DNA from: Escherichia coli
GTDB lineage: Bacteria > Pseudomonadota > Gammaproteobacteria > Enterobacterales > Enterobacteriaceae
Assembly (NCBI RefSeq): GCF_003018235.1
Contig: NZ_CP027437.1
Reading direction: 5' to 3' (one strand)
Length of the DNA stretch: 64,000 nt
A program made the position numbers. Position 1 is the first letter of the stretch, and each line of letters starts with the position of its first letter. Positions 36,001 through 39,000 of the stretch are shown here, piece by piece.

Positions 36001-39000
36001 AGTGATGATTGTGCTGTCGCGCCATCCGCTGGTGGTGGAAGTGAAGCGTCAGTTTTGTCGCAGCGAAAAAATGAAAATGCTTTTACGGGCGGGGTGAGTT
36101 GCTGTTTTCGGTTCCGGCAATGGTTGCCGGATGCGGCGTAAAACGCCTTATCCGTCCTACGGTTCTGTGCTTGGGACTTGTAGGCCTGATAAGACGCGCC
36201 AGCGTCGCATCAGGCACTAAATGCCGGATGCGGCGTAAAACGCCTTATCTGTCCTACGGTTCTGTGCTTGGGACTTGTAGGCCTGATAAGACGCGTCAGC
36301 GTCGCATCAGGCACTGAATGCCGGATGCGGCGTTAACGCCTTATCCGTCCTACGGTTCTGTGCTCGGATCTTTAGGCATGATAAGACGCGTCAGCGTCGC
36401 ATCAGGCAAAAGCGGCAACGAAAACAACAAACACAGCTTCAGCTGGCATCAAATTTATGAGGAAAAAATGAAATTACTTATTCTGGGCAACCACACTTGC
36501 GGCAATCGTGGCGACAGCGCCATCCTGCGCGGCTTACTTGATGCCATCAACATCCTCAATCCACATGCCGAAGTGGACGTGATGAGCCGCTATCCGGTCA
36601 GTTCTTCCTGGCTGCTCAACCGCCCGGTAATGGGCGATCCGCTGTTCCTGCAAATGAAAAAACACAACAGCGCGGCAGGCGTTGTCGGGCGCGTTAAAAA
36701 AGTCCTCCGTCGCCGCTACCAGCATCAGGTATTGCTCTCACGCGTCACCGACACTGGCAAGCTGCGTAATATCGCCATCGCCCAGGGATTCACCGACTTC
36801 GTGCGCCTGCTGTCAGGTTACGACGCCATTATTCAGGTCGGCGGATCGTTTTTTGTCGATCTCTATGGCGTGCCGCAGTTTGAACATGCACTTTGCACTT
36901 TCATGGCGAAAAAGCCGCTGTTTATGATTGGTCACAGTGTTGGTCCCTTCCAGGATGAGCAATTTAACCAACTGGCGAACTATGTCTTTGGTCATTGCGA
37001 CGCGCTGATCCTGCGCGAATCGGTCAGCCTTGATCTGATGAAACGTAGCAATATCACTACCGCAAAAGTTGAACATGGCGTCGATACCGCGTGGCTGGTC
37101 GATCACCACACAGAAGATTTCACCGCCAGCTATGCCGTCCAACACTGGCTGGACGTTGCCGCACAACAGAAAACGGTAGCAATTACCCTGCGCGAACTGG
37201 CACCGTTCGACAAACGTCTCGGCACCACTCAACAAGCGTATGAAAAAGCCTTTGCCGGGGTGGTCAATCGCATTCTCGACGAAGGGTATCAGGTGATTGC
37301 GCTTTCCACCTGTACGGGCATCGACAGCTATAACAAAGACGATCGCATGGTGGCGCTCAATCTGCGCCAGCACATCAGCGATCCTGCCCGTTACCACGTA
37401 GTGATGGATGAACTCAACGATCTGGAAATGGGCAAAATTCTCGGTGCCTGTGAACTCACCGTCGGTACGCGCCTGCACTCTGCCATTATCTCGATGAATT
37501 TTGCCACTCCGGCAATTGCCATCAACTACGAACATAAATCCGCCGGGATTATGCAGCAGCTGGGACTACCGGAGATGGCAATTGATATCCGTCATTTATT
37601 AGACGGCAGCCTGCAAGCGATGGTTGCGGATACCTTAGGCCAACTTCCGGCGCTGAACGCACGACTTAGCGAAGCCGTCAGTCGCGAACGTCAGACGGGA
37701 ATGCAGATGGTGCAATCTGTGCTTGAGCGCATCGGGGAGGCGAAATGAAGGTCGGCTTCTTCTTATTGAAATTCCCGCTGTCGTCAGAAACCTTCGTCCT
37801 CAATCAAATTACCGCGTTTATTGATATGGGCTTTGAGGTGGAGATTGTCGCGCTGCAAAAAGGCGACACCCAGAACACCCACGCGGCATGGACGAAATAC
37901 AACCTTGCCGCAAGAACCCGTTGGTTACAGGACGAACCTGCGGGCAAAGTAGCGAAACTGCGCCACCGCGCCAGCCAGACCTTACGCGGCATTCATCGTA
38001 AAAATACCTGGCAGGCGCTCAACCTCAAACGCTATGGCGCAGAGTCGCGGAACCTGATTTTGTCTGCCATTTGCGGCCAGGTCGCAACACCATTTTATGC
38101 CGATGTCTTTATCGCTCATTTTGGCCCTGCGGGGGTAACAGCAGCAAAACTACGGGAACTGGGTGTCATACGCGGCAAAATCGCTACTATCTTCCACGGC
38201 ATTGATATCTCCAGTCGGGAAGTGCTCAACCACTACACTCCCGAATATCAGCAACTGTTCCGCCGTGGCGACCTGATGCTACCGATAAGCGATCTGTGGG
38301 CCGGAAGGCTGCAAAAAATGGGCTGCCCGAGGGAAAAAATCGCCGTATCGCGCATGGGCGTGGACATGACGCGCTTTAGCCCGCGTCCGGTGAAAGCGCC
38401 TGCAACGCCGCTGGAAATCATTTCCGTCGCACGCTTAACCGAGAAAAAAGGCCTGCATGTGGCGATTGAAGCCTGCCGTCAGTTGAAAGAGCAGGGCGTG
38501 GCATTTCGCTATCGCATCCTCGGCATTGGCCCGTGGGAACGACGCCTGCGCACCCTCATCGAACAATATCAACTGGAAGATGTGGTGGAGATGCCGGGCT
38601 TTAAACCGAGCCATGAAGTGAAAGCGATGCTCGACGACGCGGATGTCTTCCTCCTGCCATCGGTAACGGGCGCGGATGGCGATATGGAAGGTATTCCGGT
38701 GGCACTAATGGAAGCGATGGCGGTTGGCATTCCGGTGGTTTCCACTCTGCATAGCGGAATACCGGAACTGGTGGAGGCCGACAAATCCGGCTGGCTGGTG
38801 CCTGAGAACGATGCCCGTGCACTGGCGCAACGACTGGCGGCGTTTAGCCAATTGGACACCGACGAACTGGCACCGGTTGTCAAACGTGCGCGCGAAAAAG
38901 TCGAACACGATTTTAACCAGCAGGTGATTAACCGAGAACTCGCCAGCTTGTTGCAGGCTTTATAGAGGAGAACGCATGACATTTAAAAAACTCTCCCGAC

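What the first reader, a model, noticed from the sequence alone, without database searches (positions are those of the whole stretch)
36099..36420. Triplicated REP-containing unit (BIME) in the wzxC-wcaK spacer
Three near-identical 95-bp units create long spurious ORFs in the track (36099..36317, and the 36318 extension of wcaK). Such arrays can act as mRNA stabilisers or attenuators inside the cps operon, and are hotspots for recombination.
Basis: seen in the sequence. Interest (0 to 1): 0.25.

Follow-up and report, generated by a model that had tools for sequence, protein, structure and literature searches.

The report
Triplicated REP array between wzxC and wcaK
The spacer between two colanic-acid genes holds three tandem copies of a well-known E. 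coli palindromic repeat pair (a BIME-2 element, REP144 in K-12), whose copy number varies from 0 to 6 among strains; it is ordinary and already described.

Summary
Each unit is a forward Y-type REP, a 18-19-nt tail-to-tail linker, an inverted Z2-type REP and a 5-nt head-to-head linker. That makes six REP hairpins in the 370-bp wzxC-wcaK spacer. It is a BIME-2 array, the ortholog of K-12 REP144, which has two units. At this site complete E. coli genomes carry 0, 0.5, 1, 2, 3, 4, 5 or 6 units. Units 1 and 2 of the window are a recent duplication; unit 3 is the conserved terminal unit. The two mechanical ORFs (36099..36317 and the 36318 extension of wcaK) are artefacts of the repeat. Rfam naRNA4 hits are only a BIME-2 signature, and they lie antisense to the operon. 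The most likely effect is inferred from REP325 and the older REP literature, not tested at this locus. The transcribed hairpins would block 3' exonucleases and partly attenuate read-through into wcaKLM. The effect cannot be essential, because alleles without the array are common. REP polymorphism at this very spacer was published in 2011. Verdict: confirmed, correctly interpreted, already known, low interest.

The parts
34619..36097 (+). wzxC (colanic acid flippase), upstream gene; stop codon TGA at 36095-36097
   Evidence: ORF of 492 aa; annotated wzxC under the match in E. coli genomes
36098..36124 (+). Left flank of the array. GTTGCTGTTTTCG (36098-36110) is the left arm of a locus-specific flanking hairpin. 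CGGCAATG (36115-36122) is the left copy of the 8-bp direct repeat. A small hairpin, TCCGGCAA-TGG-TTGCCGGA (36113-36131), overlaps the head of the first REP.
   Evidence: Sequence; comparison with the empty-site allele L006; small hairpin folds at -12.2 kcal/mol; flank is single copy per genome
36125..36160 (+). REP 1, Y type, head to tail on + (TGCCGGATGCGGCGTAAAACGCCTTATCCGTCCTAC)
   Evidence: hairpin -15.6 kcal/mol
36161..36179 (+). Tail-to-tail linker 1 (GGTTCTGTGCTTGGGACTT)
36180..36216 (-). REP 2, Z2 type, inverted (reads GTAGGCCTGATAAGACGCGCCAGCGTCGCATCAGGCA on +)
   Evidence: hairpin -21.9 kcal/mol
36217..36221 (+). Head-to-head linker CTAAA
36222..36257 (+). REP 3, Y type (one change in the stem: CTGTCC)
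36258..36276 (+). Tail-to-tail linker 2
36277..36313 (-). REP 4, Z2 type, inverted
36314..36318 (+). Head-to-head linker CTGAA
36319..36353 (+). REP 5, Y type (loop GTTAAC, 1 nt shorter)
36354..36371 (+). Tail-to-tail linker 3 (GGTTCTGTGCTCGGATCT, 18 nt)
36372..36408 (-). REP 6, Z2 type, inverted and slightly decayed (TTAGGCATG instead of GTAGGCCTG)
   Evidence: weaker hairpin, -15.3 kcal/mol
36409..36467 (+). Right flank. CGGCAACG (36413-36420) is the right copy of the direct repeat. CGAAAACAACAAAC (36419-36432) is the right arm of the flanking hairpin. The Shine-Dalgarno GAGGA lies at 36459-36463.
   Evidence: Sequence; comparison with L006; the MFE fold pairs the two flank arms around the array
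36468..37748 (+). wcaK (colanic acid pyruvyl transferase), true start ATG 36468, 426 aa
   Evidence: tblastn matches begin at residue 1 in about 80 species
36183..36350 (-). Two Rfam naRNA4 (RF02564) matches, 36183-36254 and 36280-36350. Each spans one head-to-head Z2/Y junction and lies antisense to the cps operon.
   Evidence: 65.7 and 73.1 bits against a gathering score of 59.5; the + strand scores 43.2 and 49.7, below threshold

Best explanation
This is a BIME-2 array: three tandem 97-nt units, each a Y REP and an inverted Z2 REP. It sits in the wzxC-wcaK spacer of the colanic acid (wza-wcaM) operon and is the ortholog of E. coli K-12 REP144. It belongs to the genome-wide REP/BIME family of selfish or domesticated palindromic repeats. 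The unit number at this site drifts by tandem duplication and deletion, either through unequal recombination or slippage between 97-nt units or through RAYT (TnpA-REP) activity. The window's third unit arose by a recent duplication of the first unit. How it most likely works is inferred, not shown here. The array is co-transcribed on the + strand inside the operon mRNA and folds into six stable hairpins. These hairpins would act as barriers to 3'-5' exonucleases, protecting the upstream wza..wzxC message. They would also act as a partial, largely Rho-dependent attenuator of read-through into wcaK-wcaL-wcaM, so expression would be biased towards the upstream genes. The operon carries a JUMPstart/ops site for RfaH, so the Rho-dependent part may be damped and the stability effect may dominate. 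My estimates: identity as BIME-2 about 0.97; a measurable RNA-level effect of this kind about 0.5; an indispensable function below 0.1, because alleles with 0 units are common.
For: Repeat anatomy is given. The Y and Z2 sequences and their alternating orientation match REP325 of K-12, which is described as alternating Z2 and Y. Rfam RF02564 exceeds its gathering score at each head-to-head junction. No IHF consensus is present, so it is not BIME-1. The BIME-2 definition (y + z2, short S linker, tandem copies, copy number variable between strains) comes from Ton-Hoang 2012. The K-12 element between wzxC and wcaK is listed as REP144, 2118467-2118652. Copy number runs from 0 to 6 at the same site in 12 fetched E. 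coli genomes. Record spans in a 60-row systematic sample give about 7 rows with 0 units, 9 with 1, 14 with 2, 4 with 3, 13 with 4 or more, and 3 with another spacer. Units 1 and 2 are 97.8% identical to each other and identical to those of strain B4103-1, while unit 3 is closest to the terminal units of other strains. The spacer RNA folds at -173.5 kcal/mol, z = -10.4 against shuffles, and each REP folds alone at -13 to -22 kcal/mol. The operon context is a JUMPstart with ops GGCGGTAGCGTG at 17160-17198 on the same strand, and RfaH ChIP signal has been reported on wza-wcaM. The mechanism precedent is REP325, a partial Rho-dependent terminator and upstream-mRNA stabiliser, together with upstream-biased expression across 146 REP-containing tandem gene pairs and REP stem-loops as exonuclease barriers.
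Against: No expression data for this locus were analysed under conditions where cps is induced. In the K-12 RNA-seq table of Harris 2026 the mean count of wcaK (90.9) exceeds that of wzxC (36.2). That is not what strong attenuation predicts, although the operon is almost silent in that condition and I assume the column is DESeq2 baseMean. The array is inverted relative to transcription compared with REP325, so transfer of the REP325 result is not guaranteed. Harris 2026 stresses that REP effects depend on context. At least 328 of 5426 complete genomes lack the array entirely, and the range of 0 to 6 units suggests weak constraint. The simple scan found no U-tract terminator and no promoter.
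Confidence: 0.75

Rival explanations
1. Functionally neutral selfish DNA. The BIME array merely occupies a permissive intergenic site, and its copy number drifts with no meaningful consequence for cps expression.
For: Copy number runs from 0 to 6, with partial deletions and a wholly different spacer in some strains. The empty allele is found in at least 328 genomes. Most other Enterobacteriaceae have only 14-45 bp at this junction. REP 6 of the window is decaying. Reported REP effects are variable and depend on context.
Against: Six hairpins of -13 to -22 kcal/mol inside a polycistronic mRNA are unlikely to be wholly inert. REP-containing tandem pairs show upstream-biased expression genome-wide. 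The same junction has been colonised repeatedly by structured repeats in other genera.
Confidence: 0.3
2. A DNA-level element: a strong, transcription-independent DNA gyrase binding and cleavage site (or topological insulator) inside a long, inducible operon. This is not exclusive of the RNA-level role.
For: Gyrase cleavage sites are significantly over-represented in BIME-2 elements, mainly in y-type REPs, and the signal rises when transcription is blocked (Sutormin 2018). The window's array has three Y REPs.
Against: Only a subset of BIME-2 elements is cleaved. The wzxC-wcaK element does not appear in the stored supplementary text of that study. No data exist for this locus.
Confidence: 0.3
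3. A gene for naRNA4-like nucleoid-associated non-coding RNAs that bind HU and condense the chromosome.
For: Two Rfam RF02564 matches lie above the gathering score, at 73.1 and 65.7 bits against 59.5.
Against: The above-threshold matches lie on the strand antisense to the operon, and the + strand scores 49.7 and 43.2, below threshold. In REP325 the matches (95-111 bits) are operon-sense. No promoter-like site was found on either strand. The model in effect recognises any Y/Z2 head-to-head junction, since hits equal units minus one in most arrays checked, with L011 giving 4 for 6 units. The authors' own follow-up finds that REP325/naRNA4 does not measurably compact the nucleoid.
Confidence: 0.04
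4. The ORFs through the repeat are real: a 72-aa protein (36099..36317) and a 50-aa N-terminal extension of WcaK starting at 36318.
For: Both ORFs exist mechanically.
Against: They are made of repeat units of 97 nt, which is not a multiple of 3. Adding or removing a unit shifts the frame, and strains carry 0 to 6 units. WcaK is annotated at 426 aa in all fetched genomes. Homologues in about 80 species align from residue 1, and in many the whole spacer is 14-30 bp. A Shine-Dalgarno GAGGA precedes ATG 36468.
Confidence: 0.01

Closest known systems
E. coli K-12 REP144 (BIME-2 between wzxC and wcaK)
   Same: It has the same locus, flanks, REP types, orientation and linkers. K-12 unit 1 is 96.7% identical to window units 1 and 2, and K-12 unit 2 is 95.7% identical to window unit 3.
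   Different: K-12 has two units (275-bp spacer). The window has three (370 bp) through duplication of the first unit. The window's last Z2 REP is slightly decayed.
REP325 / naRNA4 locus (yjdM-yjdN) of E. coli K-12, Rfam RF02564
   Same: It is a BIME-2 array of alternating Y and Z2 REPs inside an operon, between tandem genes. It is the best-studied example of a dual terminator and stabiliser.
   Different: It has six units of 100 nt (12 REPs), against three of 97. Its head-to-head linker is 11 nt (ACGGTGCCGAC) against 5 nt, and its tail-to-tail linker has an unrelated sequence. Its orientation relative to transcription is the opposite: the naRNA4 sense is the operon sense there and antisense here. 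Rfam scores are 95-111 bits there and 66-73 here.
REP polymorphism flanking the O-antigen cluster (Iguchi et al. 2011, PLoS One 6:e23250)
   Same: That paper describes REP-containing indels in the wcaK-wzxC spacer among O157 strains. It proposes REPs as recombination points around the O-antigen locus.
   Different: It compared six strains and reports two or four REPs. Here the range seen is 0 to 12 REPs (0 to 6 units), and the units are typed as Y/Z2.
BIME-1 / RIP elements (Y + Z1 with L linker and IHF site)
   Same: They belong to the same REP superfamily and contain a Y REP.
   Different: BIME-1 elements are single copy, use Z1 and have a long L linker with an IHF site. Here there are tandem copies, Z2 and no IHF consensus.

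Membership tests
BIME-2 (Bachellier/Gilson classification, as summarised by Ton-Hoang 2012) | Built from REPs: 30-40-nt imperfect palindromes with a conserved GTAG/CTAC at the foot and a mismatch in the stem | tested here: met
   There are six palindromes of 35-37 nt. Five carry CTAC/GTAG and the sixth has TTAG. Each folds as a hairpin with an internal mismatch.
BIME-2 (Bachellier/Gilson classification, as summarised by Ton-Hoang 2012) | Composed of y and z2 REPs (not z1) | tested here: met
   The heads GCCGGATGCGGCG (Y) and GCCTGATGCGACG (Z2) alternate. The full sequences match the Y and Z2 units of REP325, which is described as alternating Z2 and Y. The published consensus figure itself was not available as text, so typing rests on that comparison and on the Rfam model.
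BIME-2 (Bachellier/Gilson classification, as summarised by Ton-Hoang 2012) | [quoted passage not shown] | tested here: inconclusive
   Alternating orientation is met, with a 5-nt head-to-head linker and an 18-19-nt tail-to-tail linker. Assigning the linkers to the named S, s, l or r motifs was not possible without their consensus sequences.
BIME-2 (Bachellier/Gilson classification, as summarised by Ton-Hoang 2012) | Occurs as tandem multiple copies, well conserved within a locus, with number variable between strains | tested here: met
   The window has 2.9 copies at 94% identity. E. coli genomes carry 0 to 6 units at the same site.
BIME-2 (Bachellier/Gilson classification, as summarised by Ton-Hoang 2012) | Extragenic location | tested here: met
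   The array lies entirely within the 370-bp wzxC-wcaK spacer, from 27 nt after the stop codon to 59 nt before the start codon.
BIME-1 / RIP | Single Y-Z1 pair with a long L linker carrying an IHF site | tested here: not met
   The element is tandem, of Z2 type, and WATCAANNNNTTR has no match in 36098-36467.
naRNA4 (Rfam RF02564) | Match to the covariance model at or above the gathering score | tested here: met
   Scores are 73.1 and 65.7 bits against 59.5, on the - strand only.
naRNA4 (Rfam RF02564) | The RNA is produced in the modelled sense (in REP325, the sense of the surrounding operon) | tested here: not met
   Hits here are antisense to wzxC/wcaK, and the sense strand is below threshold. 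In REP325 the hits are on the gene strand. No promoter-like site was found on either strand. Actual transcription was not measured.
naRNA4 (Rfam RF02564) | Binds HU / nucleoid association | not testable with these tools
   This is a biochemical property, and its biological relevance is now questioned.
REPtron / RAYT-associated BIME | Adjacent rayT (tnpA-REP) gene flanked by the BIMEs | not tested
   The neighbours are wzxC and wcaK. rayT lies at another locus in E. coli, seen under a weak hit (row H59). The rest of the window was not scanned for rayT.

The most novel reading that the evidence does not exclude
The wzxC-wcaK junction may be a selected 'tuning point' of the colanic acid operon. 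Across Enterobacteriaceae this otherwise tight junction (14-45 bp in 49 of 75 species) has been colonised repeatedly by unrelated structured repeats: REP pairs, BoxC-like elements, and in E. coli a BIME-2 array of 0 to 6 units. On this reading the unit number acts as a heritable dial that sets the ratio of late functions (WcaK pyruvylation, WcaL, WcaM) to the upstream genes.
Probability: 0.12. Interest if true: 0.45.

Novelty: already known. Interest (0 to 1): 0.12.

Why it matters
For annotation, the array produces two false ORFs, including a false 50-codon extension of wcaK, and it draws a misleading 'naRNA4 sRNA gene' call from Rfam on the wrong strand. For biology, it is one more polymorphic BIME-2 site in the recombination-prone region next to the O-antigen cluster. 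If copy number does modulate wcaKLM expression, natural alleles with 0 to 6 units would be a ready-made allelic series for testing the 'REPs as tunable 3'UTR dials' idea. Nothing here changes what is known about REPs.

Tried and rejected
1. In one search many rows (H39-H51) matched only from query position 414/426, the left edge of the array. This looked like a similarity breakpoint at the BIME. Direct alignment showed the wzxC 3' ends of those strains are 96-98% identical to the window. The partial coverage is therefore an artefact of how BLAST pieces are joined in long arrays, and no breakpoint claim is made.

2. The NC_000913.3 record in the collection carries no REP features. The name REP144 came from the supplement of Harris 2026.

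3. I looked for locus-specific gyrase data in Sutormin 2018. wzxC and wcaK are not mentioned in the stored supplementary text.

4. The supplements of Ton-Hoang 2012, which hold the per-locus BIME alignments, are not held.

5. The IHF site search was negative. The promoter and terminator scan found nothing beyond chance. The single 'terminator' is the inner stem of REP 3 followed by TTATCTGT.

6. The translation-stalling mechanism for REPs close to stop codons (Liang, Rudd and Deutscher 2015, recalled from my own knowledge) could not be found in the library. As I recall it, a REP must lie within about 15 nt of the stop codon. Here the first REP starts 27 nt after the stop, so I did not adopt it. 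A small flank hairpin does start 15 nt after the stop.

7. I tried to decide whether the empty site is ancestral or a deletion. No outgroup carries the flank hairpin without REPs, so the direction stays unresolved.
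Full report
**Observation**

The stretch 36098..36467 is the spacer between two + strand ORFs. 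One is 34619..36097 (492 aa). The other ends at 37748. Matches in E. coli genomes annotate them as wzxC and wcaK.

Tandem Repeats Finder reports a single array at 36125..36408, with period 97, 2.9 copies, 94% matches and score 498. The repeat finder shows three in-register copies. The self-match at lag 97 is 0.67. The best lag match in 1262 background windows of the same length averages 0.351 (sd 0.02) and never exceeds 0.45. The repeat is therefore real and far beyond chance.

Only the third unit, which has lost one or two bases, gives 95-96-nt spacings.

**Anatomy**

Each unit reads, on the + strand, as four parts:
- a REP running head to tail (TGCCGGATGCGGCGTAAAACGCCTTATCCGTCCTAC);
- an 18-19-nt linker;
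- an inverted REP (GTAGGCCTGATAAGACGCGTCAGCGTCGCATCAGGCA);
- a 5-nt linker (CTAAA or CTGAA).

The two REP kinds have the heads GCCGGATGCGGCG and GCCTGATGCGACG. Twelve such heads occur in the 64-kb window against 0.5 expected by chance, and six of them are in this array.

I compared the array with REP325 of K-12 (yjdM-yjdN), which its investigators describe as 12 alternating Z2 and Y palindromic units. The comparison shows the same two REP types. The Rfam model built on that locus (RF02564) matches each head-to-head junction above its gathering score. No IHF consensus is present.

These features fit the definition of BIME-2: y plus z2 REPs, alternating orientation, short linkers, tandem copies, and copy number variable among strains (Ton-Hoang 2012). 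I could not assign the linkers to the named S, s, l or r motifs. In K-12 the element at this site is catalogued as REP144, 2118467-2118652.

**Comparison among strains**

I fetched the same spacer from 12 complete E. coli genomes and split each at the REP heads.

| Units | Spacer | Genomes |
|---|---|---|
| 0 | 71 bp | an O145 strain |
| 0.5 | 145 bp | one strain, with an internal deletion |
| 1 | 179 bp | O157:H7 and P377 |
| 2 | 275 bp | K-12 |
| 3 | 370-371 bp | the window and O27:H7 B4103-1 |
| 4 | 468 bp | one strain |
| 5 | 563-564 bp | two strains |
| 6 | 662-663 bp | UM146 and EC0585 |

A 60-row systematic sample of the ranking from all 5426 genomes can be classed by record span. It gives about 7 rows with 0 units, 1 with 0.5, 9 with 1, 14 with 2, 4 with 3, 13 with 4 or more, and 3 with a different spacer. 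A direct search with the empty-site sequence finds it in at least 328 genomes.

Window units 1 and 2 are 97.8% identical to each other and identical to those of B4103-1. Unit 3 is 91% identical to them and is closest to the last unit of other strains. The third unit of the window therefore arose by a recent duplication of the first unit of a K-12-like two-unit array. In EC0585, units 1 and 3 are identical and units 2 and 4 differ by one base, so a two-unit block was duplicated there.

**The spurious ORFs**

The unit length is not a multiple of three, and unit number varies. WcaK is annotated at 426 aa everywhere. Its homologues in about 80 species align from residue 1. In most of them the whole junction is only 14-45 bp. 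A Shine-Dalgarno GAGGA precedes ATG 36468. The 72-aa ORF and the 50-codon extension of wcaK are therefore artefacts.

**The Rfam naRNA4 hits**

The matches above threshold lie on the - strand (73.1 and 65.7 bits), antisense to the operon. The + strand scores 49.7 and 43.2 bits, below the gathering score of 59.5. In REP325 the matches (95-111 bits) lie on the gene strand. The same antisense relation holds in K-12, EC0585 and UM146. The number of hits equals units minus one in most arrays checked, although UM146 gives 4 hits for 6 units.

The array is thus inverted relative to transcription compared with REP325, and the Rfam call marks BIME-2 DNA rather than an sRNA gene. The proposed nucleoid role of naRNA4 has been contested by the same laboratory.

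**How it most likely works (inferred)**

The spacer lies about 19 kb into the wza-wcaM operon. The leader of that operon carries a JUMPstart with the ops sequence, on the same strand. The array is therefore transcribed as part of the polycistronic mRNA.

The spacer RNA folds at -173.5 kcal/mol, z = -10.4 against shuffles. Each REP alone forms a hairpin of -13 to -22 kcal/mol.

There are three precedents:
- REP stem-loops resist 3' exonucleases and mark the steady-state 3' ends of Rho-dependent transcripts.
- REP325 both stabilises the upstream message and cuts downstream expression about ten-fold, in a partly Rho-dependent way.
- REP-containing tandem gene pairs show upstream-biased expression genome-wide.

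I therefore expect the array to protect the wza..wzxC message and to damp wcaKLM expression, with an effect that grows with unit number. RfaH has been detected on wza-wcaM by ChIP, and from established knowledge it suppresses Rho. The attenuator component may therefore be weak here.

Several observations argue against a strong or necessary role:
- alleles with 0 units are common;
- the last REP of the window is decaying;
- the one expression table I could consult shows wcaK counts above wzxC counts in uninduced K-12;
- REP effects are reported to depend on context.

A DNA-level role as a gyrase site is plausible for BIME-2 in general, but it is undocumented for this locus.

**Origin and dynamics**

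The array sits inside a locus-specific inverted repeat (GTTGYTGTTTTCG ... CGAAAACAACAAAC). In the empty allele this repeat forms a simple hairpin. Filled alleles carry an 8-bp direct repeat (CGGCAACG) on both sides, and the empty allele keeps one copy. The flank is single copy per genome.

No outgroup shows the hairpin without REPs, so I cannot say whether the empty site is ancestral or a precise deletion. E. whittamii keeps only the Z2 half.

Outside Escherichia, 49 of 75 species have a junction of 45 bp or less. The other 26 have expanded junctions, holding other REP-like pairs or BoxC-like elements. One E. coli allele class (NCTC 86) also holds a BoxC-like spacer. The junction is thus a recurrent landing site for palindromic repeats.

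One Escherichia genome (MOD1-EC7003) has lost wcaA..wzxC, and the junction lies inside REPs of the wzc-wcaA and wzxC-wcaK clusters.

**Novelty and verdict**

The kind of element, its variable copy number, its proposed roles and the REP polymorphism at this exact spacer have all been published. The finding is ordinary. Its practical value is to prevent false ORF and sRNA annotations.

The window itself is E. coli-like, but it is at most 97.4-98.8% identical to any complete E. coli genome in the two segments tested.

Noticed in passing
L090:1600-2000 (Escherichia sp. MOD1-EC7003) versus window 21120-21250 and 36319-36467: In this genome wzc is followed directly by a REP cluster and then by the last Y/Z2 unit and wcaK. 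About 15 kb (wcaA..wzxC) is missing and the junction lies within REPs. This looks like a deletion by recombination between two BIME loci of the cps operon.
   Followed up: partly
L016-L093 (wzxC-wcaK junction in other Enterobacteriaceae): The junction is 45 bp or less in 49 of 75 species. In the other 26 it is expanded by unrelated structured repeats. These are REP-like pairs (Citrobacter amalonaticus, Citrobacter spp., S. enterica arizonae) or BoxC-like CCCTCTCCC..GGGAGAGGG elements (Lelliottia, Pluralibacter, Pseudenterobacter and others). The site is a recurrent insertion site.
   Followed up: partly
L007:699-859 (E. coli NCTC 86; also rows H36-H38): An allele class, about 3 of 60 sampled genomes, has a completely different 161-bp wzxC-wcaK spacer. 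It carries a BoxC-like repeat and a different ribosome-binding region (TTTTGAGGTCATA), like that of other genera.
   Followed up: no
window 36098-36124 and 36409-36432; L006:699-769: The array is enclosed by a locus-specific inverted repeat (13-14 nt arms) and by an 8-bp direct repeat (CGGCAAYG). The empty allele keeps the hairpin and one repeat copy. It is undecided whether this reflects target duplication on insertion or precise deletion. The left flank CCGGCAACGGT also resembles the inverted Y head plus linker of REP325.
   Followed up: partly
window 17160-17198 and 41712-41750 (+): There are two JUMPstart elements (Rfam RF01707). The first contains the ops sequence GGCGGTAGCGTG upstream of the cps operon. 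The second presumably precedes the O-antigen cluster.
   Followed up: partly
window 930-1072 and 1259-1407 (-); 31744-31793 (+); 63257-63382 (+): Other Rfam matches above gathering score: two Sib antitoxin RNAs (next to ibs toxin genes), an algC RNA motif upstream of cpsG, and STnc490.
   Followed up: no
window 8007, 12105-12125, 14906, 21140-21250: Further REP heads occur in the window, including a REP cluster just after wzc (21140-21250). That intergenic site was also noted by Iguchi 2011.
   Followed up: no
whole window (tested 1-3000 and 35700-36900): The best identity to any of 5426 complete E. coli genomes is 98.8% and 97.4% in the two segments. The source lineage is therefore not closely represented in that collection (possibly Shigella or a divergent E. 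coli lineage). WzxC and WcaK are 99-100% identical to those of E. coli E69.
   Followed up: partly
K-12 coordinates 2118651-2118749 (+ strand there, antisense to wzxC), equivalent to about window 36020-36125 (-): The supplement of Harris 2026 lists a NusG-dependent Rho termination peak (P_N10_2163) that abuts REP144 on the antisense strand. This may mean that Rho stops antisense transcripts crossing the array.
   Followed up: no
L008:583-1245 (E. coli EC0585): The six-unit array has a higher-order structure. Units 1 and 3 are identical and units 2 and 4 differ by one base, so a 194-bp two-unit block was duplicated.
   Followed up: partly
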